The notes: generated from the letters alone by a model not told the origin. Shown: positions 45,569-64,000, numbered from the stretch's first letter. The stretch: DNA of 64,000 bases from Minisyncoccia bacterium (GCA_044356725.1 JBIKVS010000002.1:36023-100022), one strand, 5' to 3'. Program-made: numbers and translations.

Positions 45569-45571
45569 CGA

Positions 45572-45803
45572 TAATTATAAATGTTGAGTTGTGAATTTCA
45601 TAGCGGAGCCGTCCCTATGGGAGTTAAACGTTTATCCCTCCATATCGTAGAGTCGGTGCCCTCGCCGACATTGTTCTAATGTAGGGTAGACCTTTCAGTA
45701 GCCTATGTCCTCCCTCCCCCTGCGGGTACTCCCTCCAAAGGGAGACAAAATAAAAACTATCCTCCCTTGGGGGAGGTGGCACCGTAGGTGACGGAGGAGG
45801 ACT
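45572..45803. repeat. Composite palindromic element, copy G (45646-45803 is a direct repeat of 46148-46305)
   Basis: Heptamer tract followed by five modules; about 158 bp nearly identical to copy H. Confidence 0.9.
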
Positions 45804-45902
45804 ATTGTATAAAAGTCATAACTAAAAATTTTTAAACGAAGAAAACACCGGTCATTGACCAGTGCTCATAGATTGAATTAAAGAGGGAAATCCCTAGTAA
45901 AA

Positions 45903-45973
45903 TCGAAGCGGCAGGATTTGAACCTACGACCCCCTGCATGTGCAGGTGCGCTACCAGACTGCGCTACGCCCCG
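45903..45973 (-). pseudogene. tRNA-Pro-like gene with anticodon loop reduced to 4 nt (no anticodon)
   Basis: CGGGGCGTAGCGCAGTCTGGTAGCGCA-CCTGC-ACAT-GCAGG-GGGTCGTAGGTTCAAATCCTGCCGCTTCGA; acceptor, D and T arms typical of tRNA-Pro. Confidence 0.8.
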
Positions 45974-45982
45974 ATGGAGAAA

Positions 45983-46058
45983 CGGTGAGTGGTGGATTCG
46001 AACCCCTGAAACTTATCACGAATTGAGACAAGTAGCTCCCAAGAGCAACTACCCCACC
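45983..46058 (-). pseudogene. Degenerate tRNA-like sequence (identity unclear)
   Basis: GGTGGGG...CTCACC-G acceptor-like stem, GGTTCGAATCC T-loop, and a 7-bp stem with a 9-nt loop in the anticodon position. Confidence 0.55.
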
Positions 46059-46115
46059 ATAATCCGTATATTATTATACTTATATTTTCTTAATTGTCAA
46101 GAGTTGAGGCGGTAC

Positions 46116-46305
46116 AATTATAGATTATGAATTATTAATGATAAATTCGTAGAGTCGGTGCCCTCGCCGACATTGTTCTAGTGTAGGGGCGACCTTTCAG
46201 TCGCCTGTGTCCTCCCTCCCCCTGCGGGGACTCCCTCCAAAGGGAGACAAAATAAAAACTGTCCTCCCTTGGGGGAGGTGGCACCGTAGGTGACGGAGGA
46301 GGACT
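46116..46305. repeat. Composite palindromic element, copy H
   Basis: Heptamer tract plus gtagagtcggtgccctcgccgaca, gtaggggcgacctttcagtcgcctg, gtcctccctccccctgcgggg..ggagac and gtcctcccttgggggaggtggcaccgtaggtgacggaggaggac. Confidence 0.9.
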
Positions 46306-46329
46306 GAGCTAAATTTACCCTATCCCCAC

Positions 46330-48645
46330 CTACCTATACAAATACTTCTGAAATTCTATGAATAAATCTCGAATAGACTCAACCCCACCCAAATTCTGTT
46401 GAGCCTCTGCCAGAGAATGATATTTATTCTGTAATAAAATAGCTAATCTATCCTGATCCAATTCCTCGAATCCAGATTGAATATATTTATCCAACACAAA
46501 TTGCAAAAATTGCTTCTGAGACTCACTTAAATCATCTAAAATATCCTGCTTGGATTGCAAAACTCTCATTTCCCTTGAAATTGGTTTATTCTCAGCATTA
46601 AAGACATATTCCAAAACATCAAACAAATCACTATTCTCCGCATCCACTAATTTTTGTAAAGTTTTCAGCTTATCTTGACTAAACCCAGCTTGACCTAATT
46701 TTTCCAAAAGCTGTTTACGAGTAATTGGACTACCCCAAATAGCCCTTAATTCCTGCTCTGTGGTGAATAATTTTGGCAATTCCCCAAATAAATTATGCAT
46801 AAATTCTTCCACTGAAACCGGTCTTCCTTGAGCATCCCAAAAAGAAGTCGAGACCATAGACTGAATTTCCCTAATTTTACCATCTCTTAATTTCACTTTA
46901 ATCTTTTTATTCTCACCTACTATAGGAGGAATTGTAGCTCCAGTTGGAGGATATACTTTAGTCCCAGAATCTCCCACAGGACTTACAGACCCATCTTCTA
47001 TAACTCCACCTTCCCACTTTGGATCCGCAAACAACCGATAAGCCTCCACAAAATCATAAATAGTAAAGAAATCCTTACCCTCAAAGACTCTCGTGCCCCT
47101 ACCAATAATTTGTTTGAACTCAATCATAGAATTAATCGGTCGCATCAAGACAATATTCCTGACATTACGAGCATCCACCCCAGTAGATAATTTTTGAGAA
47201 GTAGTCAAAATAGTTGGGATAGTCTTCTCGTTATCCTGAAATTCCCGCAAATACTGCTCCCCCACCTCACCATCATTAGCCGTCACTCTGACACAATAAT
47301 TCGGATTAGTGCTAAGTTTTTGCTGATTAATCAAATCTCGCACCAAAGCCGCATGAGCCTGATTAGCACAGAACACAATAGTCTTCTCATCCTGATTGAT
47401 AAGATTCATAAAAGTCTGCACCCGATAAGCCTCCCGCTCCTCAATCACAATTTTACGATTAAAATCACCCTCAGTATATAATTTACCAGTCTCAATATCT
47501 CCCTCCACCACATCATCATCCGGAGTATACAAATAATCATCCATCGTAGTGTGAATTCGCTTCACCTTAAATGGAGTCAAAAACCCATCCTCAATCCCAT
47601 CTTTCAGAGAATAAGTATATACCGAATCCCCAAAATACCTATAAGTATCCGCATTCGCCTCTTGTTTTGGAGTAGCTGTAAGCCCCAATTGCACAGCTGG
47701 AGAGAAATATTCTAGAATTTTTCGCCATCTACCCTCATCATTGGCTCCACCACGATGACATTCATCAATAATAATAAAATCAAAATAATCCTCAGGATAC
47801 TCCCGAACCCGCTCACTCAATACTTCATCTTCTGGATTATCCCCACTCATAAAAGTCTGGAAAATCGTAAAGAAAACACTACCATTTTTAGGCATTTCAC
47901 CCTTATGTCGAATTTGTTTTGGGTCAATTCTAACCAATGCATCCTCAGGGAAAGCCGAAAAAGAATTAAAAGCCTGATTAGCCAGAATATTCCTGTCCGC
48001 TAAAAACAAAATTCTAGGCCGACGACCACCATCCTCCTGCAAATTCCATCTAGTCTGATACAATTTCCAAGCAATCTGAAAAGCAATCGCCGTCTTACCA
48101 GTCCCAGTAGCCAAAGTCAATAAAATTCTATCATCCCCCTCAGCAATCGCCTCTAGCACCTTATTGACCGCAATCTCCTGATAATACCTCAACTCCCAAG
48201 ACCCACCTCTACTCTCAAACGGAATAGTATTGAATTTATCTCTCCATAAATTAACCTGTTCAAAGACCCGCGACCATAATTCCTCTGGAGTAGGAAATCT
48301 CTCCACAAGAGCCTCAGTCCCAGACTCCATATCAATCTCATAAATCTCCCGACCATTAGTCGCATAAGTCAACTTGAGTTGTAATTTGTGAGCATAATCT
48401 TTAGCCTGTTGCACACCCTCACCCACCACATTATCCGCACTTTTGGCCTCAATCACCGCCAACTTCACACCTTTATATTCCAAAATATAATCCGCCTTCA
48501 AAAGAGAAGCCCTCACACTAGAAGTCTGAATTTTACCCTTCGTAATATTATACTCTCGCAAAACCCGTGACTCATCCACCACACCCCAACCTTGGGCAGT
48601 CAATTTCGGATCAATCAGCTCCGCTCTAGTCTCAGCTTCATTCAT
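46330..48645 (-). CDS. hsdR: Type I restriction endonuclease subunit R (EcoEI/EcoAI-like)
   Basis: NEAETR, ADYIL..VIEAK nuclease motif, LRYYQ, LATGTGKT, IIIDECHR, GLTATP and FKQIIGRGTR. Confidence 0.95.
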   Translation of the reverse strand: MNEAETRAELIDPKLTAQGWGVVDESRVLREYNITKGKIQTSSVRASLLKADYILEYKGVKLAVIEAKSADNVVGEGVQQAKDYAHKLQLKLTYATNGREIYEIDMESGTEALVERFPTPEELWSRVFEQVNLWRDKFNTIPFESRGGSWELRYYQEIAVNKVLEAIAEGDDRILLTLATGTGKTAIAFQIAWKLYQTRWNLQEDGGRRPRILFLADRNILANQAFNSFSAFPEDALVRIDPKQIRHKGEMPKNGSVFFTIFQTFMSGDNPEDEVLSERVREYPEDYFDFIIIDECHRGGANDEGRWRKILEYFSPAVQLGLTATPKQEANADTYRYFGDSVYTYSLKDGIEDGFLTPFKVKRIHTTMDDYLYTPDDDVVEGDIETGKLYTEGDFNRKIVIEEREAYRVQTFMNLINQDEKTIVFCANQAHAALVRDLINQQKLSTNPNYCVRVTANDGEVGEQYLREFQDNEKTIPTILTTSQKLSTGVDARNVRNIVLMRPINSMIEFKQIIGRGTRVFEGKDFFTIYDFVEAYRLFADPKWEGGVIEDGSVSPVGDSGTKVYPPTGATIPPIVGENKKIKVKLRDGKIREIQSMVSTSFWDAQGRPVSVEEFMHNLFGELPKLFTTEQELRAIWGSPITRKQLLEKLGQAGFSQDKLKTLQKLVDAENSDLFDVLEYVFNAENKPISREMRVLQSKQDILDDLSESQKQFLQFVLDKYIQSGFEELDQDRLAILLQNKYHSLAEAQQNLGGVESIRDLFIEFQKYLYR

Positions 48646-48735
48646 AGCTATAATTTGTATCTAATATATATAGTTTAGTATAACAGTTTGTCCCCCCGCA
48701 AGCAATAGAAAAGATGTTAAGTGTAAATTGTATTT

Positions 48736-48985
48736 CTGTCTCCCTTTGGAGGGAGTCCCCGTAAAAAGGCTTTAGCCTTTGGGAAAGGGGTCGGGAAAAC
48801 GGTAGTTTTCCCGTGGAGGAAGGTTGGGAAACCGTGAGGTTTCACAGGAGCAAATCTCATTTGCGACGGTGGAGTGAGGACTGAGCTAAATTCCCCTCTT
48901 GAGGGGTGGCAGGCTTCGCCTGACGGGGTGGATGCATTTCTGTCCTCCCTTGGGGGAGGTGGCCGTTAGGCCGGAGGAGGACAGT
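48736..48985. repeat. Composite palindromic element, copy I, with nested extra hairpins
   Basis: tgtctccctttggagggagtcccc interrupted by aaaggctttagccttt, cgggaaaacggtagttttcccg and gaaaccgtgaggtttc; then the cccctcttgaggggtgg and gtcctcccttgggggagg modules. Confidence 0.85.
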
Positions 48986-49076
48986 TGCAACGAGGTGAGT
49001 GTAGACACACAAAATCCAAAGAAAAAACCCTCCAGCCAGTCGGCGAAGAGGGGGGATAAAGTTTTGGTGAGGGAGA

Positions 49077-49343
49077 CTACGAAGGAGTAGGCCTGCCTTC
49101 CAGGAACATTGAGTTCCGAGTATCTTGTTGAGTACCACTGGGGATACCCAAGACAGTACAAGCAGACTCCAAGAACGAGTACTGACAAAAGAGTCTGCAA
49201 AATACATCACCTGTGATTTTGCTTTCAGCAGCAGTCCTGTAAAACCAGTAAACTGCATCCCTCAATTCATCAAAGCACTCTCGGGAGTGATTCAGAATAT
49301 ACTGACTATAGCTATCACCAATAACTTGGATGAAAGGCTCCAC
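49077..49343 (-). CDS. Hypothetical protein in a self-contained cassette
   Basis: GGAGG RBS before GTG; promoter TTGCAT-17-TATAAG at about 49377-49406; terminator hairpin + T-run at about 49021-49056. Confidence 0.55.
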   Translation of the reverse strand: MEPFIQVIGDSYSQYILNHSRECFDELRDAVYWFYRTAAESKITGDVFCRLFCQYSFLESACTVLGIPSGTQQDTRNSMFLEGRPTPS

Positions 49344-49442
49344 TGTTAAACCTCCACTTGAAAAAGGGGCATTATTCTTATACCATATTCTATTTTTTTA
49401 TGCAAGCATATACAATAATGATTCTGAATTATAAAGCCATAA

Positions 49443-49520
49443 AGTCGGCGCCCTCGCCGACATTTCTCTAAAAATTCCCCTCTTGAGGGGTGGCAGGCTT
49501 CGCCTGACGGGGTGGATGCA
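49443..49520. repeat. Composite palindromic element, copy J
   Basis: agtcggcgccctcgccgaca plus aaattcccctcttgaggggtggcaggcttcgcctgacggggtggatgcattt (the latter identical to 48888-48939). Confidence 0.88.
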
Positions 49521-49532
49521 TTTTTGCCCCCC

Positions 49533-50678
49533 TTATTTATCCCTAAATATATCCAAGTATTCGCGATACATATACGACTGACCATAAGTGATATCCTCAT
49601 CCTTAGGAGAAAGTATTCCCAAATTCACAAATCGATCAATAACCCTTTGAGCTCCAGCCCAAGAAAACCCAGTCCACTTTTGAATAGTAGCCACATTGAC
49701 AATAGGTTGTCCATAAAGCTGAGGCAAGACCAACATAGCACTCTCTGAAGCTCTAGCACTCAATACATTAAGCCTATCCCTATCTCTTTCTCGAAGTTCT
49801 GTAATTGCCCCAACAATATCAATAGCCTCTTGTGCAATCGTAATCACACCATCAAGGAAAAACTCAAGCCACTCATTCACCTCTCCCTTATGATAAGCAT
49901 TCAGTTTCTCATAATAAACTTGTTGATATCGCCGAAAATACGAAGATAAAAATAATACCGGCTTCTCGATAAAGCCTTGTTGCCAAAGATAAAAAGTAAT
50001 CAACATTCGCCCCGTACGACCATTCCCATCCAAAAATGGATGAATAGTCTCAAATTGCGAATGAATCAACCCAGCTTTAATAAGAGTCAATATATCATCC
50101 TCAGAATGAAAAAACTTTTCCAAATCATCCAAAGCCTTATTCATTTCATCCACTGGAGGAGGTACAAACCTTGCATTATCTAAATTAGTCCCTCCAATCC
50201 AATTCTGACTATTACGAAATTCCCCAGGATCAGCAAAATGAGAAGCTCTAGCATCATTCATCAACATACTATGTAATTCACGAATAAATCTTAGAGAAAG
50301 CGGAAAATTATCTTCTTCTACCCTATTCATACCATAATTCAAAGCTTTGATATAATGAAGAATATCTTGTACATCATCAGGAATATTCATATTTGTATTT
50401 GCCTCAGCTTCGATAGCATCAATCATAGTAGCCCGAGTCCCTTCAATCTGACTGGAAGAAGCCGCGTCTTTTCTCAAATACATCAGTAAGAAAAAATCAG
50501 AATCAGGTAATAATCGAGTAATCCCATCTAATTTACCTAATAATCTGGTTGCTTGGTCATTCTTTTTTAGAACAATTGAGCTAAAATTAAAACCACCCTC
50601 AGGAGGGAAAGGCAAAGGGATAAAGGCATTGTACCCCTTAGGTTGCAAAATTATCTTACCGATTGACATATGATTCAT
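49533..50678 (-). CDS. Fic family protein (Fic_N + Fic + C-terminal wHTH); start probably 50678 or 50669
   Basis: HPFLDGNGRTGR Fic motif; SSQIEG inhibitory motif; PGEFRNSQNWIG. Confidence 0.93.
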   Translation of the reverse strand: MNHMSIGKIILQPKGYNAFIPLPFPPEGGFNFSSIVLKKNDQATRLLGKLDGITRLLPDSDFFLLMYLRKDAASSSQIEGTRATMIDAIEAEANTNMNIPDDVQDILHYIKALNYGMNRVEEDNFPLSLRFIRELHSMLMNDARASHFADPGEFRNSQNWIGGTNLDNARFVPPPVDEMNKALDDLEKFFHSEDDILTLIKAGLIHSQFETIHPFLDGNGRTGRMLITFYLWQQGFIEKPVLFLSSYFRRYQQVYYEKLNAYHKGEVNEWLEFFLDGVITIAQEAIDIVGAITELRERDRDRLNVLSARASESAMLVLPQLYGQPIVNVATIQKWTGFSWAGAQRVIDRFVNLGILSPKDEDITYGQSYMYREYLDIFRDK

Positions 50679-50680
50679 AA

Positions 50681-50795
50681 TTGTATATATTGATAGCTTG
50701 AATATATACAAAGTATATCAGTTTGTATATATTAGGTCAATAGATATATACAAAGCACCCTAGTTTGTATATATCTACACCCGAGATGTATACAA
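50681..50795. promoter_or_regulatory. Three tandem palindromic operator-like sites TTGTATATAT-N11-AT(A/G)TATACAA with a 42-bp period
   Basis: Sites start at 50681, 50723 and 50765, immediately upstream of the fic gene. Confidence 0.7.
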
Positions 50796-50798
50796 ACT

Positions 50799-51893
50799 TT
50801 ACAATTCCCCCGCGAAGGCTTTTTGGAGAATAGATTTTTTGAGCTCTTCTAATCTAAGTAATTTATCTCTATAAATAAACTCTAATCTCTGAGTCTCGGC
50901 TCTGAGGGCATCTAATCGCTGGACAATGGCTTTTTGTTCGGTGAGTGGTGGGAGAGGGATAGAAATATTTTCAATTTGTGTTTTATTAATTGAATTAAAA
51001 ACTGCTCCTGCATTTCCTTCAATTTCATTTTCATGATTTATAAGAAAATTAAAAAGAAACTCTTTATCAATACTCTTACTAGCTCTAATTGCAGCAAGCC
51101 CTCTACCAATACAGATTTTTTGTGTAGAAAAATTTACAGGACCAACTGGTGCCCTAACAGACATTAAAATATCTTCTGCCTCTGCTTCTTTGGTAATTTT
51201 GGTTGTCCATATTCTAGGTTCTCCAATATATTTATCTCCGTATTCTTTTTTACCTTGATAAAATGGCAAGCCTTTACCTTCTGAATTATAATATTTACCT
51301 TCTGGAGATTGTCCAGCAATAACCTCACACACATCCCCCAATTTCTTCTCCTCCCAATCATCACCTTTATTCTCGAACACACCTTGCAAATAACTTTGGA
51401 AAAGTTCTTTAGCATTTTTGAGATTTTGCTCCGTATTAGCCTTGACCTTATCAATCGCTTCGAAAGCCTGGTCTAAAATAGCTACAATCCGCTTTTGCTC
51501 GGTGAGTGAAATTTTTGGAAATTGTTCAAATTTATAATCTTTGAAATAAATATGTGGTATGGTACTACCATTTTTATATTTTATAAAATCTACTCCTTCT
51601 AGAAAATATTTAATGAAATCTATATCAAAACCATCTTTGGGTAACAGATATTGCATTGTTGCTACTATAGATGATTTTTCTGGATGTTTAGTAATTCTAC
51701 CTATCCCAGCACCATCTTTAATAATTGACAGATACTCTTTTTCCTGATGATAAAAAGATACATTTTGAACAAAACCTTGTGCACCAAATACAGGATATAT
51801 TCCGTCTTCATTTTCAATTTTATTAAGAGAAATATTAGATGATTCTTTTGATACTACTTCCTCCAAATTACAATATTGCCAATCTTTTTTCAT
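50799..51893 (-). CDS. hsdS: Type I R-M specificity subunit S (start ATG 51893)
   Basis: Two TRDs separated by conserved LTEQKRIVAILD and PLPPLTEQKAIV helices; KSILQKAFAGEL end. Confidence 0.93.
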   Translation of the reverse strand: MKKDWQYCNLEEVVSKESSNISLNKIENEDGIYPVFGAQGFVQNVSFYHQEKEYLSIIKDGAGIGRITKHPEKSSIVATMQYLLPKDGFDIDFIKYFLEGVDFIKYKNGSTIPHIYFKDYKFEQFPKISLTEQKRIVAILDQAFEAIDKVKANTEQNLKNAKELFQSYLQGVFENKGDDWEEKKLGDVCEVIAGQSPEGKYYNSEGKGLPFYQGKKEYGDKYIGEPRIWTTKITKEAEAEDILMSVRAPVGPVNFSTQKICIGRGLAAIRASKSIDKEFLFNFLINHENEIEGNAGAVFNSINKTQIENISIPLPPLTEQKAIVQRLDALRAETQRLEFIYRDKLLRLEELKKSILQKAFAGEL

Positions 51894-51894
51894 A

Positions 51895-53355: not shown

Positions 53356-53479
53356 ATAACCTGCTTAATTTCATTTAATAATTTTTCTACTGAACTTATT
53401 CCTAATTACCAGTAGAATATTTTATATCTCTATTATACCAGTATTTTATATATTTTCTAAGGGGGGGGCGATAGATAAT

Positions 53480-54050
53480 GGAGGGATAAACGTTTACCTC
53501 CCGTAGGGACGGCTCCGCTACGAAAACAATGTCCCTCGCTGGCGAGAAAGGGGATCCCTCCTATACCTTGTTTAGGAGGGATGGGTGTGGACAAAATTCA
53601 TAATTTATCATTCACCATTCACAATTTATTTTTCCACCCCGTCTTTGTTTCACAAAGCCACCCCTCAAGAGGGGAATTTTTAGCTCAGTCCTACTCCGTC
53701 ACCTACGGTGCCACCTCCCCCACCTGTCTACCTTAGGTAGAAAGGAGGACATTTCTTAATTTGTCCCCCTTCGGAGGGGGAAGCCTGAAAGGCGGGGGTG
53801 GATAGAGTTTAATATAAAAGTTATTTAGGGTACAATTCTAAGATTATAAATTTTATAATTATCCACCACCGGCACTTCGTGCCACCTCCTCCACCTGTCT
53901 ACCTTAGGTAGAAAGGAGGACAAAATGACTCAAAACACAAAAGCACTCTCCCCCCGTCTTTGTTTCACAAAGCCACCCCCTCCCAAACTAAGGTATGGGA
54001 GGGACGAAAGCCCTCAATTTATCGACCGTAGGTGGAGAGGGGAATTTTTT
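53480..54050. repeat. Large composite palindromic element cluster, copy K
   Basis: Contains most module types; two copies carry the loop insertion cacctgtctaccttaggtagaaagg; two copies of ccccgtctttgtttcacaaagccacccc; internal heptamer tract. Confidence 0.88.
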
Positions 54051-54169
54051 TCAAAAAATATCCTTTAATTACAGACATCTGTAAGCCCCATCCTACAAAA
54101 TTAATTCCTCAATTTAACCTCTCATATACAAGTATAATTAACAATTTTATAATTATTATACATAAACCC

Positions 54170-54198
54170 TTGACAAATTTTGAAAAGTATGATATATT
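54170..54198 (+). promoter_or_regulatory. Sigma70-type promoter TTGACA-17-TATATT with extended -10 TG
   Basis: ttgacaaattttgaaaagtatgatatatt. Confidence 0.7.
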
Positions 54199-54207
54199 CT
54201 TTCACAA

Positions 54208-54288
54208 GCTTCGGCTAAAGGAAAAGTCTACATAGTCTTAACTTATCTGATAAAGATAATTAACCGAGACAACTCCTTTAGCCCGAGC
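54208..54288 (+). ncRNA. Candidate structured RNA / leader hairpin
   Basis: gcttcggctaaagga pairs with tcctttagcccgagc; inner stems gtct/agac and ttatct/agataa; directly after the promoter. Confidence 0.45.
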
Positions 54289-54342
54289 CTAACCCACGGT
54301 ACGCTGACTCGCTGTCACCGTGCCACTACCGGAGGAATCTCC

Positions 54343-54426
54343 ATGGCCAAAGCCAGAGCTGGTCCTGCCCACACCAATTTTGTGGGCACTTCCAACAACA
54401 ACGGCAGTTTCGCCAACTTCTCCTGA
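54343..54426 (+). CDS. Micro-ORF, 27 aa (MAKARAGPAHTNFVGTSNNNGSFANFS)
   Basis: GGAGG at 54331-54335 before ATG; inside a promoter-terminator unit. Confidence 0.35.
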   Translation: MAKARAGPAHTNFVGTSNNNGSFANFS

Positions 54427-54714
54427 CCATTGAGGTCGTCCAATGAAAAAACGACGAACATTGGGGCTACTCGCCCCCGACAACTACCGTCAATAAAAAC
54501 ACTGCTCTCCCTTGTGGAGAGATTCCAGAGAGCTAAAAGTTCAAATCACGACCCCTGTTGCTTGCATCAGGGGTTTAGACTTTATATAAAGTTATGTTAT
54601 TTTATACACCTTACTATACTAGGCAACTGTCGCAAATTTTGCGATAGTTCAATGTTTATCTAATATTTAATTAGTGAATATATTTTCTAAGGGGGAGGAA
54701 GTAAGTTTATAGCT

Positions 54715-54962
54715 TTGTCCACACCCACCACTTCGTGGCCCCCCCTCGCCAGCGAGGGACAGTTTGTAACTGTCCTCCCTTCTACCCAAGGTAGACAGGT
54801 GGGGGAGGTGGCGCCGTAGGTGACGGAGGAGGACATAAACTCAAGTCACATAAACCATTTCACCCCGTCAGGCAAAGCCTGCCACCCCTCAAGAGGGGAA
54901 TTTTAAAAACATGTCGGCGAGGGTGCCGAATCTACAAATTTACAATTCATCATTCATAATTC
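54715..54962. repeat. Composite palindromic element, copy L
   Basis: acacccaccacttcgtgg..cctcgccagcgagggac; gtcctcc module with ctacccaaggtagacaggt insertion; cccctcaagagggg and gtcggcgagggtgccga modules; right heptamer tract. Confidence 0.88.
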
Positions 54963-54971
54963 AAACTTCCC

Positions 54972-56426
54972 CTACACCAACTTCTCTAATTTTGAGAGTA
55001 TGGCTTGGCTGTCGGTATCGAGGGTTTGGATTTCACTTAATATCTCTTGTGGGTCTCGAAGTTGGGTGTCGTCTTTTTTATTGGGGTTTTTGACTGAGAG
55101 GTCAAAGGTGGTCTGATCGATATCGGCTATATTGACTGTCCAAGAATTCTCACTATCTGATTTAGTTTTCTGTAATTCTACAAATTCGGCTAAATCTTGC
55201 TCATTGAGAGGATTAGTTTTACCTAGATTACGATTGAGATTGAGCTGATAATACCAAATTTTAGAGGTTGACTCACCTTTGGTGAAGAATAAAACTACAG
55301 TTTTGACTCCTGCTCCGGTGAATGTCCCGCTCGGTAGGTCTAATATGGTATGTAGATTACAATTTTCTAATAATTGTTGTCTCAAGGCTATGCTAGCATT
55401 GTCGGTATTGGAGAGGAAGGTATTCTTGATAACTATACCTGAGTTTCCTCCAGCTTTCAGGATTTTGATAAAATGTTGTAAGAAAAGTGATGCGGTCTCT
55501 CCAGTTTTGATGGGGAAATTTTGTTGTATTTCGGCTCTTTCTTTACCTCCAAAGGGTGGATTAGCAAGTACGATGTCATAGCGGTCTTTTTCTTGTATGT
55601 CTTGTAAATTCTCGGTCAGGGTATTCTTATGAATAATATTCGGAGCTTCGATACCATGTAATATCATATTCATTATGGCGATGATATAGGCAAGGGAACC
55701 TTTTTCCTTACCATAAAAAGTTTGTTTTTGTAATATTTCGGTGTCTTTACTACTAAGAGACTTGCCTTCGGTTAGATAATTATAGGCTTCGACCAAAAAG
55801 CCGGCTGAACCTACGGCTCCATCATAAATGGTTTGTCCAATTTTAGGGTCTATGACTTTGACTATGGTGGTGATTAGCGGTCTTGGGGTGTAATATTCTC
55901 CCCCATTTCGTCCAGCATTACCCATATTCTTGATCTTGGCTTCGTATAGATGGCTCATTTCATGCTTTTCGGTAGAGGTGCGGAATTTGAGTTTGCTGAT
56001 TAGCTCAATGATTTCTCTCAAGGCATAACCGCTGGCGATTTTATTTTTGAGTTCGCTAAAAATTTCTCCAATTTTATATTCGATGGTGTTGGTTTCTAAG
56101 AATTGAGTTTTAAATTTTTTGAGATATGGGAAAAGTTTGAGATTTACAAAATCTGTTAAATCATCTCCTGTCAGAGCTTTGTTATGGTCATATTTGTCAT
56201 TGCTATCTAGTGGCATTGCCCAAGTACTCCATTGATATTCTGGAGCTATGATGGGTTGATATTCTCTATCTTCTAATTGAGCAATGAGGGCTTTATCTTT
56301 TTCTAAATCGTCTAAATATTTGAGAAATAAGATCCAAGAGGTCTGCTCAATATAGTCAAGTTCAGTCTGAGAGCCGCCGGCTTTCCTGAGTATGTCGTCT
56401 ATATTTTTGAATGTTTGCTCGAACAT
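54972..56426 (-). CDS. hsdM: Type I R-M DNA methyltransferase subunit M (N6-adenine)
   Basis: GEYYTPR, IYDGAVGSAGFL and VLANPPFGG. Confidence 0.96.
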   Translation of the reverse strand: MFEQTFKNIDDILRKAGGSQTELDYIEQTSWILFLKYLDDLEKDKALIAQLEDREYQPIIAPEYQWSTWAMPLDSNDKYDHNKALTGDDLTDFVNLKLFPYLKKFKTQFLETNTIEYKIGEIFSELKNKIASGYALREIIELISKLKFRTSTEKHEMSHLYEAKIKNMGNAGRNGGEYYTPRPLITTIVKVIDPKIGQTIYDGAVGSAGFLVEAYNYLTEGKSLSSKDTEILQKQTFYGKEKGSLAYIIAIMNMILHGIEAPNIIHKNTLTENLQDIQEKDRYDIVLANPPFGGKERAEIQQNFPIKTGETASLFLQHFIKILKAGGNSGIVIKNTFLSNTDNASIALRQQLLENCNLHTILDLPSGTFTGAGVKTVVLFFTKGESTSKIWYYQLNLNRNLGKTNPLNEQDLAEFVELQKTKSDSENSWTVNIADIDQTTFDLSVKNPNKKDDTQLRDPQEILSEIQTLDTDSQAILSKLEKLV

Positions 56427-56534
56427 AGTGTTGTTTAGGTTATATATTTTATATTATAGCATTTTTTGGAGCAAATTATGAGTGTATAAAAAACTACCCT
56501 CCCAGCTGATGCGGGGAGGGGGGGGGTGATGGAA

Positions 56535-56783
56535 TTAAGCTCGGGATTGTTGTATTAAACTCCTAATCATACTATCTTCATCATAAGTTAGATAAAGTGA
56601 ATACATAGAGACTATAGAATTTTTTAAATGTAATTCAATTTTTTCTTCTTGATTGCGAAGCATCCCTAATAACATGCGTTCTTTATCCGAGTGTTGATGG
56701 GTAGTCTGTTCTAATATAGTTATCGCATCCAATAAATCTTGATTGAAATGAGCCCTGATTCTCATAGTGCTATCAGAAGACAT
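56535..56783 (-). CDS. Hypothetical protein
   Basis: ORF with an upstream TTGCCA/TATAGA promoter-like site and a downstream GC hairpin terminator (about 56486-56522). Confidence 0.45.
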   Translation of the reverse strand: MSSDSTMRIRAHFNQDLLDAITILEQTTHQHSDKERMLLGMLRNQEEKIELHLKNSIVSMYSLYLTYDEDSMIRSLIQQSRA

Positions 56784-56879
56784 AACTCAAGTTTTGATAA
56801 ACTCAATATAATCTATACCATATAATTTTTATCTTGGCAATATTATAAATAAAATACCTCCCCAGCTAGGATAGTTTTT

Positions 56880-56967
56880 AATTGTCCTACCTTGGGGGAG
56901 ACATAAACTAAAGTTCAAAAAACATCACCATGTCGGTGAGGGCGCCGACTCTACGAAATTTATAATT
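56880..56967. repeat. Composite palindromic element, copy M (short)
   Basis: tgtcctaccttgggggagac and tgtcggtgagggcgccgactctac plus a heptamer tract. Confidence 0.75.
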
Positions 56968-57731
56968 CACCATTCATAATTCAAAACTACCCTCACCCAC
57001 CATATATAAACTATTCCAGCTATTACTAACCACCAAAAGCCTAGCCAAGCTGCAATACCTATCCAAAAAGCTAAGCTCCAAATTCCTGACAAACTCAACC
57101 AAAAACCTATATTATTATCTATTTCTTTTTTCACTGGGAATAAAACATACCAGCCAGCAAAAGCTATGATGCTCGTCACCATCCAACCAAAGAAATTCAT
57201 CAAGGGCACTCCATAATACCAGCCATCTATTTCCCAAAGCCAAAATCCTAAGGCTGTTGCTCCTGGATCAAGTATCAGGTCAAAAGTTGTCATCAGCACT
57301 GCTCCTAAGATTATTTTAAGCCAAAGTTTGTATATTTTTAATTTTTGCACTAAAACTAAACTTAAGAAAAATATAGGAGTCCAAGACAAACTAACCGTCC
57401 ATGGCACTAGTCCAAAGATTTTGATATCCCCTAAAACCTCCCCATATACAAAAGCACTATAGGGCCAACTTGTGGCTATAGCAAAGGATTCTATCAGCAA
57501 GGGATAGCTAAAAATTAAAATGATTTTCCACCAGTCTTGCCTCCAAGCACACCATTTATGTAGTCCATATAATATTGGCAAAGCAATCAGTACATTTGTA
57601 GCTTGAGATATAGCTTGGAATATCCAAAATGGAAAAGGTAATTCTTCTGGCCTGAAGCTAAAATACACTACAAAGAATCCACTCAGGATTAAGCTAATAC
57701 TTGGAATTAAAAATAATAATTTTTTCTGCAT
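56967..57731 (-). CDS. cruF: Carotenoid 1,2-hydratase CruF-like (DUF422) membrane protein
   Basis: WPYSAFVY, GLVPWTVSLSW, FDLILDPGA..GFWLW and YYGVPLMNFFGW. Confidence 0.85.
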   Translation of the reverse strand: MQKKLLFLIPSISLILSGFFVVYFSFRPEELPFPFWIFQAISQATNVLIALPILYGLHKWCAWRQDWWKIILIFSYPLLIESFAIATSWPYSAFVYGEVLGDIKIFGLVPWTVSLSWTPIFFLSLVLVQKLKIYKLWLKIILGAVLMTTFDLILDPGATALGFWLWEIDGWYYGVPLMNFFGWMVTSIIAFAGWYVLFPVKKEIDNNIGFWLSLSGIWSLAFWIGIAAWLGFWWLVIAGIVYIWWVRVVLNYEW

Positions 57732-57766
57732 ATATGCTATACTTATTATTATATAATTATATCATA

Positions 57767-58606
57767 ATGAGTATTACGAAACTATTAAGAATTTCAAGAC
57801 CCAGATTTTGGATTTATTTATTAGGACCTTTTTTGATTGGGAGCATTTTGAGTTTAGAGCCTTTAGAAGTTGTAAGTAAGTGGCAATTTTGGCTTGGATT
57901 TATTTATTTTACCTTGCCTGCTAATCTTTTAATCTATGGGGTTAATGATATTTTTGACTATGAGACAGATAAATTAAACCCTAAAAAACAAAATTATGAG
58001 GAATTAGTCACTCCGTCCGAGCATATCTGGTTATGGATTTGGATTATTCTTACTAATATACCTTTTATTATAGCCCTATATCTGATTAATCCTTTGACTT
58101 TATTTGGTTGGCTTGGATTTATTATTCTGGGAGTGCAATACTCTGCCCTACCAATTCGAGCTAAAGCTAAGCCCTTCTTGGACTCTATATTTAATATACT
58201 ATATGTCTTCCCTGGTGTAATTGGCTATACTTTATTTGCTCAGAGCCTCACTTTAGATTGGAGATTATTACTAAGTGCCGGACTTTGGACTATGGCTATG
58301 CATACCTATTCAGCAATTCCTGACATTGAAGCGGATAGAGAGAGTAAAACCCCCACTATTGCCACAGTATTGGGAGCTAAATTAACTTTGGTCTATTGTT
58401 TTGTCTGTTATACCTTGTCTGGAATATTGTTAGCTCAGTTTAGTACAGTTCTTGGAATTTTAATTGCTATTGTATATGGGTTTATGATTGGCTTTAGCTG
58501 GTCAGATAATACAGCTAAAATATTCAAATTATATACTTATTTCCCTGTACTTAATACTATTATTGGGTTTATTTTGTTTTGGAGCATTGTGATTTGGTAT
58601 AGGTAG
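57767..58606 (+). CDS. UbiA-family prenyltransferase, lycopene elongase (CrtEb/LyeJ)-like; start at ATG 57767
   Basis: SRPRFWIY, YGVNDIFDYETD..NPKK, YSALPIRAK.KPFLDS and MHTYSAIPDIEAD. Confidence 0.82.
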   Translation: MSITKLLRISRPRFWIYLLGPFLIGSILSLEPLEVVSKWQFWLGFIYFTLPANLLIYGVNDIFDYETDKLNPKKQNYEELVTPSEHIWLWIWIILTNIPFIIALYLINPLTLFGWLGFIILGVQYSALPIRAKAKPFLDSIFNILYVFPGVIGYTLFAQSLTLDWRLLLSAGLWTMAMHTYSAIPDIEADRESKTPTIATVLGAKLTLVYCFVCYTLSGILLAQFSTVLGILIAIVYGFMIGFSWSDNTAKIFKLYTYFPVLNTIIGFILFWSIVIWYR

Positions 58607-58677
58607 GGAGATAATTGTGAGTGGTGAATTGTTCAATACCTATTGACAAATATTAGAAAATATGATATATATTTATA

Positions 58678-58829
58678 TGAACATGAGGTGATATTCAGTA
58701 ATAGTACATATATATGGTTAGATACCTATATATTACATTACTAGATATTAGTCTAATAGTTACTATTTAATAGGCATAGGTATTTGAGATATATACAAAC
58801 TCGGATACCACATAATACACCTCTGTTCA
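58678..58829 (+). ncRNA. Candidate rod-shaped structured RNA (6S-like architecture)
   Basis: TTGACA at 58643; closing stem tgaacatgaggtg/cacctctgttca, central bubble, inner stem agatacctat/ataggtattt; terminator gatcctagc..gctgggatc + T-run at 58855-58891. Confidence 0.5.
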
Positions 58830-58944
58830 AGACAATGTCTCTTTTCTTCATTCCGATCCTAGCGCCACTTTGGTTGCTGGGATCTTTTTTTATAAAGAAT
58901 TTCATAGTAGCTCGTATATTCTATACTCAAAAGGAGGATAAAAT

Positions 58945-59116
58945 AAAAACTGTCCTCCCTTGGGGGAGGTGGCATCGTAGGTGACGGAGGAGGACTTCCA
59001 TTGAAATCAATTTATAAATCTTTTGTCTACACCCACCACTTCGTGGTCACCCCTCGCCAGCGAGGGACAAAAATACAGGCGCCTGCAAGGTCCCCACACA
59101 ATTCATAATTCACAAT
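58945..59116. repeat. Composite palindromic element, copy N (paired left heptamer tract at 58612-58631)
   Basis: gtcctcccttgggggaggtggcatcgtaggtgacggaggaggac, acacccaccacttcgtgg..cctcgccagcgagggac, caggcg..aaggtcccc, then a right heptamer tract. Confidence 0.85.
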
Positions 59117-63693: not shown

Positions 63694-63851
63694 TGTACGC
63701 GCTTAACAAGTGAGGTGTTTCTATTGTCATTTTTATCCTGTTGCCAGACTAAAATACCTATACTAAGACATGACACAATCAAAAGTATGAATATGCATAA
63801 ACATGCATTAGTAAAACTTATTTTAGATTGTGGTTGAATAAGCTTTGACAT
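63690..63851 (-). CDS. Small single-TM protein (53 aa), not in the ORF track
   Basis: MSKLIQPQSKISFTNACLCIFILLIVSCLSIGILVWQQDKNDNRNTSLVKRVQ; its TGA overlaps the ATG of the 63693 ORF. Confidence 0.45.
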   Translation of the reverse strand: MSKLIQPQSKISFTNACLCIFILLIVSCLSIGILVWQQDKNDNRNTSLVKRVQ

Positions 63852-64000
63852 AACCAGACAAATGTCAAGGTACTGTATAGGACGAATACATCGTGGAAAA
63901 ATTAGAGAGGAAAGAGAAAGGAGATAAATAGTTAAGAGAAGTATGAGGACGTTTAGTATTATAATAGTAAATGTATTCTATTAAAGATTTGTTAAAATCT

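What the first reader, a model, noticed from the sequence alone, without database searches (positions are those of the whole stretch)
45572..59116. Repeat mosaics bracket self-contained promoter-to-terminator cassettes (integron-like array without an integrase)
Seen: several accessory units sit between two repeat clusters and carry their own promoter and terminator. The tRNA-like pair lies between 158-bp direct repeats (45646-45803 and 46148-46305). The 88-aa ORF lies between identical copies of module c (48888 and 49472). The hairpin plus micro-ORF unit (54170-54576) lies between clusters K and L. The rod RNA (58643-58891) lies inside inverted heptamer tracts (58612 and 59100). Inference: the repeats act as recombination or capture handles for gain and loss of small expression cassettes, which would explain why hsdM, hsdS and hsdR are spread over 10 kb. 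This is my best candidate for an undescribed system in the window.
Basis: partly seen in the sequence, partly recalled or inferred. Interest (0 to 1): 0.8.

Follow-up and report, generated by a model that had tools for sequence, protein, structure and literature searches.

The report
Dispersed hairpin repeats around a defence island
The repeats are real, but they are copies of small GC-rich hairpin elements scattered over this tiny freshwater bacterium's whole genome, piled up in a variable slot holding a restriction-modification defence island; it is not an integron-like gene-capture array.

Summary

The integron-like reading is not supported.
- The repeats are not specific to this locus. About 20 families of GC-rich hairpin modules cover 25 kb (2.8%) of this 0.9-Mb Paceibacteria (CPR) genome. 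They lie in about 100 of 830 intergenic gaps and occur in all 11 other genomes of the genus.
- The 10-kb spread of the hsd genes comes from embedded defence genes, SoFic and a KAP NTPase. A relative carries the same gene order in a compact island with almost no spacers.
- Two of the four "cassettes" are ancestral residents of the slot between valS and the carotenoid gene: the tRNA-like pair and the 88-aa ORF.
- Near-identical direct repeats also flank ordinary syntenic genes elsewhere in the genome.
- No integron integrase or transposase was found. The only tyrosine recombinase is Xer-like.

The elements are mobile. At 465 conserved gene junctions they are present only here at 20, only in the closest relative at 3, and in both at 9. 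One family has 25-nt terminal inverted repeats. Other modules sit nested in the loops of bigger hairpins.

Some facts keep a weaker repeat-mediated shuffling idea alive. One small RNA gene has changed locus. Nearby repeat pairs are mostly direct. Three recently exchanged accessory genes end at repeats.

The parts
43205..45568 (+). valS (valyl-tRNA synthetase), the conserved left anchor of the variable slot
   Evidence: Pfam tRNA-synt_1 and Anticodon_1. It is syntenic at 78-88% DNA identity on a contig that also holds the carotenoid genes in 8 of 11 same-genus genomes; G001 and G002 have it on other contigs, and no valS match was listed for G011.
45572..45814 (.). Repeat cluster: heptamer tract, module e, then the composite copy R1 at 45645-45803
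   Evidence: D2, I5; up to 41 other genomic copies per position.
45840..46100 (-). tRNA-like pair unit. It holds the promoter at 46100-46073, a degenerate tRNA-Val-like gene at 45983-46063, an anticodon-less tRNA-like gene at 45902-45974, and the terminator at 45867-45843.
   Evidence: It is ancestral beside valS in relatives.
46116..46327 (.). Repeat cluster with the composite copy R2 at 46147-46305
46330..48645 (-). hsdR, the type I restriction subunit
   Evidence: Pfam ResIII, EcoEI_R_C and HSDR_N. PADLOC REase_I, E 6.5e-133.
48704..48990 (.). Repeat cluster. It holds the 150-nt five-hairpin element at 48727-48880, then module c and module b.
   Evidence: There are 24 copies in G000 and 4 in G004 with an aligned length of at least 110 nt.
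49077..49343 (-). 88-aa ORF with no known family, an ancestral resident of the slot
   Evidence: Homologues occur in 5 of 17 family genomes, all between valS and the carotenoid gene.
49410..49534 (.). Repeat cluster: heptamers, module a, module c
   Evidence: (D8, D4).
49533..50711 (-). Fic-domain protein similar to SoFic, a defence gene embedded in the type I operon
   Evidence: Pfam Fic_N and Fic. PADLOC SoFic, E 2e-109. NCBIfam SoFic scores 131.9 bits, below the 550 cut-off.
50681..50801 (.). Three 42-bp tandem copies of an AT-rich palindrome (TTGTATATAT...ATATACAA) between Fic and hsdS
   Evidence: D9, I18, I20, I22. It does not belong to the GC-rich families.
50799..51914 (-). hsdS, the specificity subunit
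   Evidence: Pfam Methylase_S and PADLOC Specificity_I.
51895..53355 (-). KAP-family P-loop NTPase, the second embedded gene
   Evidence: Pfam KAP_NTPase. Weak PADLOC match to PDC-S20. The same position is occupied in G011.
53477..54049 (.). Repeat clusters standing where G011 and G002 carry a 313-aa ORF6N / PDC-S05 gene
54170..54585 (+). Small-RNA-like unit: promoter, 85-nt long hairpin, micro-ORF at 54343-54429, terminator
   Evidence: The first 130 nt or so are homologous to units at another locus in G005 and G002.
54714..54981 (.). Repeat cluster ending in a heptamer tract at the hsdM stop codon
   Evidence: (I1, I2, I4).
54972..56426 (-). hsdM, the type I methyltransferase
   Evidence: Pfam N6_Mtase and HsdM_N. 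PADLOC MTase_I, E 1.1e-158.
56535..56783 (-). Orphan 82-aa ORF
56857..57000 (.). Repeat cluster with a heptamer tract overlapping the stop codon of the carotenoid gene
   Evidence: (I13, D5).
56967..58606 (.). Caroten_synth gene (minus strand) and UbiA prenyltransferase gene (plus strand), the conserved right anchor of the slot
   Evidence: Syntenic in the genus.
58645..58895 (+). The 'rod RNA' unit: consensus promoter, a structured RNA of about 220 nt, terminator. Found only in this genome.
58926..59127 (.). Repeat cluster ending in a heptamer tract at the crtI stop codon
   Evidence: (D1, D10, D7).
59116..60618 (-). crtI-like phytoene desaturase
   Evidence: The protein is 88-97% identical in the genus.

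Best explanation
The interval is a hypervariable accessory slot downstream of valS in a freshwater Paceibacteria genus.

In this genome the slot holds a composite defence island: type I R-M genes hsdR, hsdS and hsdM, with a SoFic-like Fic gene and a KAP NTPase gene embedded between them. It also holds older residents, namely a tRNA-like pair and an 88-aa ORF, and two orphan small-RNA-like units.

The DNA between these genes has been colonised by small, selfish, non-autonomous GC-rich hairpin elements, which resemble REP/BIME, BOX and MITE elements. They occur all over the genome and throughout the genus. They insert into intergenic DNA, preferentially beside or inside earlier copies and even into hairpin loops. 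In this way they build mosaics, and they spread locally to neighbouring gaps.

Bracketing of the units is a by-product: any independently transcribed gene in a repeat-laden region ends up between clusters. Many modules are a hairpin followed by a T-run, so they probably also act as terminators or insulators between units.

Shown here: the genome-wide distribution, presence or absence at orthologous sites, terminal inverted repeats in one family, nested loop insertions, the ancestral island order, and the ancestry of two units.

Inferred: the insertion chemistry (a single-strand HUH/Y1-type enzyme or another enzyme acting in trans, now lost or not assembled), the local-hopping origin of the near-identical flanking copies, and terminator activity.
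For: Distribution in the genome:
- Modules of the interval recur in 129 clusters (18,092 bp) on 18 of 20 contigs.
- A de novo search gave 22 seeds with 11 to 41 exact copies each.
- 25,005 bp lie at a repeat depth of 5 or more, and 3,252 bp of that fall inside called ORFs.
- Repeats occupy 57 of 616 tandem gaps, 26 of 108 convergent gaps and 17 of 106 divergent gaps.
- All 11 other genomes of the genus carry the modules, often at 88-97% identity, while valS is 78-88% identical.

Comparison with the closest relative, G004 (618 reciprocal orthologues):
- The repeat share of intergenic DNA is 17% (6,035 of 34,603 bp) at conserved junctions and 21% (10,467 of 50,579 bp) where a neighbour lacks an orthologue.
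- Of 465 conserved junctions, 20 have repeats only in G000, 3 only in G004, 9 in both and 433 in neither.
- There are clean insertions of 250 to 460 bp between genes that lie 3 to 84 bp apart in G004. Three of them carry inverted ends of the type ...ATCGTAGACA.
- Hairpin loop lengths are bimodal. For the h1 stem, 30 copies have 6-nt loops and 7 have 25-nt loops that are themselves CTAC/GTAG hairpins; 12 of the 25 stem matches with longer loops, across the three stems tested, repeat one of these two forms, and two c1 copies are doubly nested.

The island:
- G011 has hsdR-Fic-hsdS-KAP-ORF6N-hsdM in 9.4 kb at another locus.
- The Fic protein matches SoFic and the ORF6N protein matches PDC-S05.
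- Genes embedded in type I R-M operons are described in the literature (PMC11411939, passages read).

Ancestry of the units:
- The tRNA-like gene lies beside valS in G003, G007 and G008 and in the slot in G009, and G005 and G010 have matching DNA there.
- 88-aa ORF homologues occur in G004, G005, G006 and G009, all in the slot and in the same orientation.

Other points:
- Near-identical direct repeats also flank syntenic orthologous genes on C10, C13 and C15.
- The units' shared promoter is simply the genome's consensus promoter: 29 strict instances, mostly 14 to 60 nt before ordinary genes.
- In G000 I found no Y1, rve, DDE_Tnp_1, TnpB or resolvase gene, and a single Xer-like tyrosine recombinase.
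Against: - The interval carries more repeat than average. 38% of its intergenic DNA (1,418 of 3,701 bp) is repeat, against about 21-24% genome-wide, and it ranks 26th of 1304 windows.
- Junctions with a non-conserved neighbour have repeats three times as often as conserved ones: 67 of 347 against 29 of 465, Fisher p = 2e-8.
- The two flanking 159-nt copies are each other's nearest relatives, 96% against 79% or less. Close high-identity pairs are direct in 12 of 14 cases. Random colonisation alone does not predict this; local hopping, local duplication or gene conversion must be added.
- One RNA unit has moved between loci that both carry repeats.
- Of the 5 protein-coding tracts of 300 bp or more at 96.5% identity or more between G000 and G004 (background 85-87%), 3 end within 18 bp of repeats on both sides.
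- No mobilising enzyme was identified.
- Target-site duplications were resolved in only 1 of 3 insertions with terminal inverted repeats (a possible TA).
- Stems are often broken. In module m4, 45 of 67 changed pairs are broken.
- My gene calls are a crude ORF filter, not a trained gene caller.
Confidence: 0.66

Rival explanations
1. Integrase-free cassette shuffling. The dispersed repeats, which are conserved between species, serve as portable homology arms. RecA-type recombination between direct copies loops units out as circles. Recombination with a copy elsewhere, or on incoming DNA from a congener, loops them in. Small expression units and defence genes would be gained, lost and exchanged in this way.
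For: - The flanking copies are each other's nearest relatives.
- Close high-identity pairs are direct in 12 cases and inverted in 2.
- The RNA unit at 54144-54330 is present in the island here. In G005 and G002 it lies between a small ORF and murI. The orthologous G000 slot, C10:96400-96030, holds only a repeat mosaic, and repeats flank the unit in G005 too.
- Relative to G011, the hsdR|Fic junction gained repeat-ORF88-repeat. Homology to G004 ends 27 nt and 4 nt from the repeats.
- Three accessory-gene tracts at about 98% identity to G004 end at repeats: a RhuM gene, a PemK-like gene and a 101-aa ORF.
- Repeats are enriched threefold at non-syntenic junctions.
- The empty site in G000 that corresponds to the G011 island carries a repeat cluster.
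Against: - Two of the four units are ancestral to the slot.
- The RNA unit shares only its promoter and 130 to 180 nt with its relatives, and the breakpoints lie about 90 and 400 nt from the repeats.
- Direct repeats flank syntenic orthologous genes as well.
- The RhuM tract lies at the same syntenic place in G000, G004 and G011, so it is an allelic exchange and not a relocation.
- Repeat density per intergenic base is nearly the same at conserved and non-conserved junctions.
- Alignments tend to stop at mosaics for technical reasons.
- Repeat-bounded segments are the places where metagenome assemblies are most likely to be chimeric, and G004 is a co-assembly bin by its title.
Confidence: 0.17
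2. The hairpin clusters are selected host elements and not selfish DNA. They would act as bidirectional transcription terminators, RNA-stabilising 3' structures or insulators that the cell keeps between independently expressed accessory genes.
For: - There are 24 terminator-like sites against 9.8 +/- 3.4 expected. Many lie inside modules, such as GTCGGTGCCCTCGCCGAC followed by T-rich sequence, and CCTCCCCCAAGGGAGG followed by ACAGTTTTT.
- Among gaps of at least 100 bp, clusters occupy 26 of 42 convergent, 57 of 151 tandem and 17 of 71 divergent gaps.
- Paired positions change less than unpaired ones in 10 of 11 modules tested. Some compensatory pairs occur: 9 of 37 changed pairs in h1, 6 of 13 in c2.
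- The module consensus is kept at 88-97% identity across species.
- Heptamer tracts abut the stop codons of hsdM, crtI and UbiA and overlap that of the Caroten_synth gene; valS is followed by a looser tract.
Against: - Orientation is only weakly tied to the flanking genes, for example 35:25 for module m0 and 9:9 for module m9.
- Of 21 strict intergenic heptamer tracts, only 3 lie within 10 nt of the end of a co-oriented called gene.
- 20 of 32 orthologous sites with repeats have them in G000 only, and G004 does without them.
- Most changed pairs are broken.
- Clusters of 3 to 8 hairpins are far more than termination needs.
- No RNA data could be obtained. None of the 24 runs found was on record as RNA.
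Confidence: 0.14
3. The array is an assembly artefact: repeat-induced mis-joins in a metagenome-assembled genome.
For: Contigs of relatives often end in these repeats. Logan contigs break at every cluster.
Against: - Independent runs reproduce the unique pieces and several junctions exactly. In X4 these are 54877-58969, which crosses the cluster at 56857-57000, 54015-54890 and 46358-48776. In X14 it is 45774-46177.
- The same modules occur in 12 of 12 genus genomes from different projects.
Confidence: 0.03

Closest known systems
REP sequences and their mosaics (BIMEs), including GTAG-tagged REPs mobilised by RAYT Y1 transposases
   Same: These are also short GC-rich extragenic palindromes in many copies, clustered into mosaics of several module types. 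At least two modules carry GTAG directly before the stem: a (CGTAG-AGTCGG...CCGAC) and m4 (GTAG-GGGCGAC...). Small GTAG/CTAC hairpins sit inside other palindromes. [quoted passage not shown]
   Different: No RAYT or Y1 gene was found in this 99%-complete genome. Y1 matches occur in 5 of 17 family genomes, intact in G005, G012 and G016. The G005 copy is an IS200-like gene flanked by different hairpins that have only 3-4 weak matches in G000. There are many more module families here, about 20, in a genome of only 0.9 Mb.
[quoted passage not shown]
   Same: The elements are non-coding and 250 to 460 bp long. They are present or absent at orthologous intergenic sites. One family has terminal inverted repeats of about 25 nt.
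   Different: No cognate transposase was found. A target-site duplication was seen in only 1 of 3 cases. Most clusters in the flagged interval lack clear terminal inverted repeats and look like assemblies of smaller modules.
BOX elements of Streptococcus pneumoniae (boxA-boxB-boxC modular repeats)
   Same: Intergenic repeats built from a few module types in variable number and order, with stable hairpins. This comparison is recalled knowledge; for PMC3049150 I saw only the search listing.
   Different: The sequences are unrelated, there are far more module types, and hairpins are nested inside loops.
Integrons (IntI, attI, arrays of attC-bounded cassettes)
   Same: Small units alternate with structured repeats, and the content varies between relatives.
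   Different: There is no integron integrase. The only tyrosine recombinase is Xer-like, lies on another contig, and scores 85 bits against a 265-bit cut-off on the integron-integrase model. The repeats are genome-wide and heterogeneous. The units carry their own promoters and lie on both strands. Two of them are ancestral.
Type I R-M operons with embedded defence genes (for example TgvAB in Vibrio cholerae VPI-2)
   Same: hsd genes are interrupted by unrelated defence genes. PMC11411939 (passages read) describes this and cites Payne et al. on genetically embedded defences.
   Different: The embedded genes here are a SoFic-like protein and a KAP NTPase, plus ORF6N/PDC-S05 in relatives. In this genome the operon is also broken up by repeat clusters, an 88-aa ORF and an RNA unit.

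Membership tests
Integron | An IntI-type tyrosine recombinase next to the array | tested here: not met
   There is one Phage_integrase match in the genome, on contig C19. Its best NCBIfam models are XerC and XerD. The integron-integrase models score 85 bits against a cut-off of 265, and 42 against 435.
Integron | Recombination sites (attC) confined to the cassette array | tested here: not met
   The same modules occur in 129 clusters on 18 of 20 contigs and belong to about 20 families. No attC covariance model was available, so attC structure itself was not scored.
Integron | Promoterless cassettes in one orientation, read from a common promoter | tested here: not met
   The units have their own consensus promoters and terminators and lie on both strands.
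REP / BIME with RAYT | Short GC-rich extragenic palindromes in high copy number, clustered in mosaics | tested here: met
   Only 3,252 of 25,005 repeat bp lie inside called ORFs.
REP / BIME with RAYT | A GTAG (or CGTC) tag at one end of the palindrome | tested here: inconclusive
   GTAG directly precedes the stem in modules a and m4 and lies within the nested mini-hairpins. Other abundant modules (b1, c1, h3) have no such tag.
REP / BIME with RAYT | A cognate Y1 (RAYT) transposase flanked by the repeats | tested here: not met
   There is no PF01797 match in G000. The intact Y1 gene in G005 is flanked by other hairpins.
MITE | Terminal inverted repeats | tested here: inconclusive
   One family has clear ends (...GATGAGAAACATCGTAGACA, with 20 core matches). 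The inverted heptamer tracts may play this role for others. Many clusters have none.
MITE | Insertion polymorphism at orthologous sites | tested here: met
   Repeats only in G000 at 20 junctions, only in G004 at 3, in both at 9, out of 465 conserved junctions. Clean insertions are shown.
MITE | Target-site duplication | tested here: inconclusive
   A possible TA duplication in 1 of 3 insertions with terminal inverted repeats. The flanks of the other two have diverged.
Type I restriction-modification system | HsdR, HsdS and HsdM encoded together | tested here: met
   Pfam. PADLOC REase_I E 6.5e-133, Specificity_I E 6.9e-85, MTase_I E 1.1e-158.
SoFic defence system | A Fic-domain protein matching the SoFic model over its full length | tested here: inconclusive
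   PADLOC SoFic E 2e-109, covering model positions 5-359 of 361. The NCBIfam equivalog scores 131.9 bits, below the 550 cut-off.

The most novel reading that the evidence does not exclude
In this CPR genus the conserved hairpin mosaics work as portable homology arms. Single defence, toxin-antitoxin or small-RNA units flanked by them would be looped out, looped in and exchanged between species by ordinary homologous recombination. This would be an integrase-free counterpart of a cassette array for organisms with 0.9-Mb genomes and almost no recognisable mobile-element enzymes.
Probability: 0.15. Interest if true: 0.7.

Novelty: new member of a known kind. Interest (0 to 1): 0.38.

Why it matters
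Patescibacteria (CPR) genomes are regarded as streamlined. This one nevertheless spends about 2.8% of 0.9 Mb on roughly 20 families of nested hairpin repeats, and no transposase is in sight.

The repeats concentrate where defence and toxin-antitoxin genes turn over. They therefore mark the accessory compartment of these genomes.

They also break metagenome assemblies there. This matters to anyone reading defence islands or gene order from CPR genomes assembled from metagenomes.

I found no description of such repeats in CPR in four full-text searches. This absence rests on those searches only.

If the repeats also mediate exchange of units, they would explain how organisms with so few mobile-element genes keep a fluid defence repertoire.

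Tried and rejected
Read evidence for excision. I laid Logan contigs of four lake runs (X4, X8, X11, X14) on 45000-59700. Every listed joint has only 20 to 41 nt on its shorter side and joins one module to another. These joints are therefore other genomic or other-organism copies of the mosaics. For example, '46181 to 45708, goes back 474' is equivalent to a copy lacking module m4. No contig bridges a deleted or circular form. Contigs cannot show absence, so this says nothing either way.

Metagenome contigs. A scan with the 88-aa protein found no relative. A scan with a 39-letter promoter and leader pattern of the RNA unit found no match.

Rfam. Nothing beyond two tRNAs reaches gathering scores in the window. 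Below threshold there are only whalefall-1, Methylosinus-1 and skipping-rope matches, which I treat as chance.

Identity of the unit at 54199-54585. I asked whether it is RNase P RNA, 6S RNA or SRP RNA. RNase P RNA lies on C17. The 6S and small-SRP models match nothing in the genome. So this remains unresolved, and the unit's patchy distribution (3 of 12 genus genomes) argues against a housekeeping RNA.

A relic of the ORF6N gene between KAP and hsdM. None was found by tblastn at E up to 10.

A shared mobile promoter module. I rejected this: the motif is the genome's general promoter consensus.

Heptamer tracts (TGAATKR)n as three-frame stop modules placed at gene ends. The tracts do give TGA in all three frames, and they abut five stop codons in the interval. 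Genome-wide, however, only 3 of 21 strict intergenic tracts lie within 10 nt of a co-oriented gene end. I leave this as an idea.

A recombination signature at the G011 island's empty site in G000. Only the gene flanks align.

I did not use the look-up of encoding contigs, which is closed. I did not request supplements. Additional files of PMC3733652 that list REPtrons could bear on the RAYT comparison.

Full report
WHAT IS THERE

The window is G000:C7:36023-100022 of an 897-kb assembly in 20 contigs, 33% G+C and 99% complete. Record titles of close relatives name Paceibacteria / Parcubacteria genomes assembled from lake and river metagenomes.

The genes of the interval, by Pfam and PADLOC, are:
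- valS (43205-45568, plus strand)
- hsdR (46330-48645, minus strand)
- a SoFic-like Fic protein (49533-50711, minus strand)
- hsdS (50799-51914, minus strand)
- a KAP NTPase (51895-53355, minus strand)
- hsdM (54972-56426, minus strand)
- a Caroten_synth gene (56967-57731, minus strand)
- a UbiA prenyltransferase (57701-58606, plus strand)
- crtI (59116-60618, minus strand)

Between these genes lie ten repeat segments, as BLAST against the genome delimits them (the parts list merges or trims a few), and four small units. The units do have consensus promoters, terminator-like hairpins and strongly structured bodies, with fold z-scores of -7.2 and -6.9.

THE REPEATS ARE GENOME-WIDE AND GENUS-WIDE

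BLAST of the interval against the genome gave 605 non-self hits, with up to 48 copies per position, confined to the intergenic segments. The modules recur in 129 clusters (18,092 bp) on 18 of 20 contigs.

A de novo seed-and-extend search gave 22 seeds, almost all of them short GC-rich hairpins. In total 25,005 bp (2.8%) lie at a repeat depth of 5 or more. With my own crude ORF-based gene calls (850 genes), only 3,252 of those bases fall inside ORFs.

Repeats occupy 57 of 616 tandem gaps, 26 of 108 convergent gaps and 17 of 106 divergent gaps. They are present in 59 of the 96 gaps of at least 300 bp. Their orientation is only weakly tied to the neighbouring genes.

All 11 other genomes of the genus carry the modules, often at 88-97% identity, although valS is only 78-88% identical. 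In the 14 genomes of other families searched, the only matches were 5 in 4 genomes: four weak ones (E of 1e-5 or worse) and one 64%-identity match to valS itself.

So these are not sites of a local array.

THE ELEMENTS ARE MOBILE, AND MOSAICS GROW BY NESTING

I rebuilt the closest relative, G004, from fetched pieces. It shares 618 reciprocal orthologues with G000, with a median protein identity of 90%.

Of 465 gene junctions conserved in both genomes, 20 have repeats only in G000, 3 only in G004, 9 in both and 433 in neither. In several cases genes that lie 3 to 84 bp apart in G004 are separated in G000 by a clean insertion of 250 to 460 bp. Three such insertions end in inverted ...ATCGTAGACA termini of about 25 nt, which is MITE-like. 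Others begin or end with (TGAATKR)n heptamer tracts.

Hairpin loop lengths are bimodal. There are 37 copies of the b1 stem, 30 of h1 and 30 of c1 with short loops. Beside them are variants whose loop holds a further CTAC...GTAG mini-hairpin of about 19 nt, and two are doubly nested.

Paired positions change less than unpaired ones in 10 of 11 modules tested, but most changed pairs are broken.

In G000 I found no Y1/RAYT, rve, DDE_Tnp_1, TnpB or resolvase gene. The single tyrosine recombinase is Xer-like. Y1 transposase matches occur in 5 of 17 family genomes. The intact one in the genus, in G005, is an IS200-like gene flanked by other hairpins.

WHAT EXPLAINS THE 10-KB SPREAD OF THE HSD GENES

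G011 carries the same island at a different locus, between a DUF4268 gene and tpiA. Its order is hsdR, Fic, hsdS, KAP, ORF6N, hsdM. It spans 9.4 kb, with gaps of 8 bp, 286 bp and about 0 bp. G002 has hsdM-ORF6N-hsdS on one contig.

The Fic protein matches SoFic (E 2e-109) and the ORF6N protein matches PDC-S05. Defence genes embedded in type I operons are described in the literature (PMC11411939, passages read).

The spread is therefore the island's own architecture. G000 differs from G011 in three ways:
- an 877-bp repeat-ORF88-repeat block at the hsdR|Fic junction
- loss of ORF6N, with no relic, replaced by repeats plus the RNA unit
- absence of a GIY-YIG domain that interrupts HsdR in G011; G002's HsdR has the same 887-aa length

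ARE THE FOUR UNITS CAPTURED CASSETTES?

(a) The tRNA-like pair is not. The odd tRNA-like gene lies directly beside valS in G003, G007 and G008 and within the slot in G009. G005 and G010 have homologous DNA there. G002 and G006 have a normal tRNA-Val(GAC) there.

(b) The 88-aa ORF is not. Homologues exist in 5 of 17 family genomes, namely G000, G004, G005, G006 and G009. All lie between valS and the carotenoid gene, in the same orientation. How it came to lie inside the operon is unresolved. Three scenarios remain possible: a two-step insertion of the island, a move through the module-c copies, or an ancestral island gene kept after loss of the hsd genes elsewhere.

(c) The RNA unit at 54170-54585 is a partial case. 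Its promoter and first 130 to 180 nt have homologues in G005 and G002 between a small ORF and murI. The orthologous G000 slot, C10:96400-96030, holds only a repeat mosaic. However, the 3' two-thirds, including the micro-ORF, are unrelated, and the homology breakpoints lie about 90 and 400 nt from the repeats.

(d) The 'rod RNA' has no homologue in 16 family genomes. Only the promoter matches, and that promoter is the genome's general consensus, with 29 strict instances, mostly in front of ordinary genes. G005 has a different small unit at the same place.

The slot itself is hypervariable. It holds a Type ISP enzyme in G009, NadE in G003, and various small ORFs elsewhere; 17 of the 20 ORFs tested have no Pfam family.

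EVIDENCE THAT KEEPS REPEAT-MEDIATED SHUFFLING ALIVE

- The two 159-nt copies are 96% alike, and the next best copy is 79% or less. The two module-c copies are each other's best full-length match.
- Genome-wide, high-identity pairs lying 100 to 2000 bp apart are direct in 12 cases and inverted in 2.
- Junctions with a non-conserved neighbour carry repeats in 67 of 347 cases, against 29 of 465 conserved junctions (p = 2e-8).
- Against a background of 85-87% identity, 9 tracts of at least 300 bp are 96.5% or more identical to G004. By my reading of their gene content and of the tRNA list, four look like rRNA or tRNA regions; I did not confirm this with an RNA search. Of the 5 protein-coding tracts, 3 end within 18 bp of repeats on both sides: a RhuM gene, a weak PemK-like gene and a 101-aa ORF.

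EVIDENCE AGAINST SHUFFLING

- The repeat share per intergenic base is nearly equal at the two kinds of junction, 17% and 21%.
- Direct pairs also flank syntenic orthologous genes on C10, C13 and C15. Flanking by repeats therefore does not imply that the enclosed gene moved.
- The RhuM tract lies at the same syntenic place in G000, G004 and G011.
- Alignments stop at mosaics for technical reasons.
- Repeat-bounded pieces are where metagenome bins are most likely to be chimeric.
- Local hopping, local duplication or gene conversion explains the nearest-neighbour direct copies equally well.

OTHER ARRAYS

Comparable alternations of clusters and single genes occur at three other places:
- C13, 26-29 kb: a PemK-like gene and an HATPase_c / DUF4325 pair
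- C15, 49.4-52.6 kb: RhuM and RhuM-Fic genes
- C20, 47-51 kb: beside a 1339-aa helicase-methylase, with Bro-N proteins

The repeats thus concentrate in the accessory, defence-rich compartment.

VERDICT

The interval is a defence-island hot spot colonised by a new set of REP/BIME/MITE-like hairpin elements. It is not an integron-like system. A general role of the repeats as recombination substrates remains possible, and I put it at about 15-17%. It needs read-level data that the contig-only runs could not give.

The most unusual single object in the interval is probably the conserved tRNA-like RNA whose anticodon loop is replaced by a tetraloop. It is recorded under things noticed in passing.

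Noticed in passing
window 45902-45974 (minus strand); orthologues in L014, L015, L017 and L018: A conserved tRNA-like RNA without an anticodon. The acceptor, D and T arms are intact, and the acceptor stem covaries (GGGGCG/CGCUUC against GGGAUG/CAUCCC). The anticodon arm is a 5-bp stem closed by a tetraloop: ACAU in G000, UUCG in G008 and G003, UUUG in G009, UACG in G007. It lies beside valS in four of these five genus genomes and further into the same slot in G009, and ARAGORN calls it 'tRNA-???'. Its function is unknown; it may be a non-decoding tRNA-like substrate or regulator.
   Followed up: partly
window 45983-46063 (minus strand): The upstream partner in the same transcription unit resembles the tRNA-Val(GAC) of G002 and G006 at its acceptor and T-arm ends. 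Its D arm is replaced by a long hairpin and its anticodon arm is altered. ARAGORN does not call it, and the Rfam tRNA-Sec model gives only 13 bits. It is either a decaying tRNA gene or a derived tRNA-like RNA.
   Followed up: partly
whole genome: ARAGORN finds 39 tRNA genes but no tRNA-Asn(GUU) and no tRNA-Gly(GCC). It does find a tRNA-Ile with anticodon UAU. The assembly is 99% complete by marker genes, but tRNA genes can remain unassembled.
   Followed up: no
window 50681-50801: Three tandem 42-bp copies of an AT-rich palindrome (TTGTATATAT-N12-ATATATACAA) fill the gap between Fic and hsdS. A promoter-like site overlaps them. G011 has a GC-rich repeat cluster at the same place. They may be an operator or an iteron array.
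   Followed up: no
L020:2924-5587 (G011); an ORF of the same 887-aa length in G002 (L024): The HsdR of G011 carries a GIY-YIG nuclease domain (residues 296-367) inserted in the helicase core. The G000 HsdR lacks about 116 residues at exactly that point.
   Followed up: partly
window 54343-54429 (plus strand): A 28-codon micro-ORF (MAKARAGPAHTNFVGTSNNNGSFANFS) with a GGAGGA Shine-Dalgarno sequence 7 nt upstream lies inside the structured RNA unit. It is not conserved in the G005 and G002 homologues of the unit's 5' part.
   Followed up: partly
heptamer tracts in the window at 45573, 53601-53635, 54936-54970, 56956-56990, 58612 and 59101; 21 strict intergenic tracts genome-wide: (TGAATKR)n tracts place a TGA codon in all three reading frames. 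In the interval they abut or overlap the stop codons of valS, hsdM, the Caroten_synth gene, UbiA and crtI. They also form the inverted ends of some mosaic insertions.
   Followed up: partly
G000 C7 end (window about 63700-64000) and C10 end (97350 downwards): Synteny with G005 and G002 shows that contig C7 continues into the reverse of contig C10.
   Followed up: partly
G000 C13:26330-27157, C15:50904-52151 and C18:16622-17025 against G004: Single accessory genes are 97.6-98.4% identical to G004 against a background of 85-87%: a PemK-like gene, a RhuM gene and a 101-aa ORF. The RhuM region is also 93% identical to G011. This is either recent exchange between species or chimeric binning.
   Followed up: partly
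L015:2987-6418 (G009): At the same slot, right after valS, G009 carries a 1143-aa Type ISP restriction-modification enzyme. Its 3' end runs into a repeat cluster.
   Followed up: no
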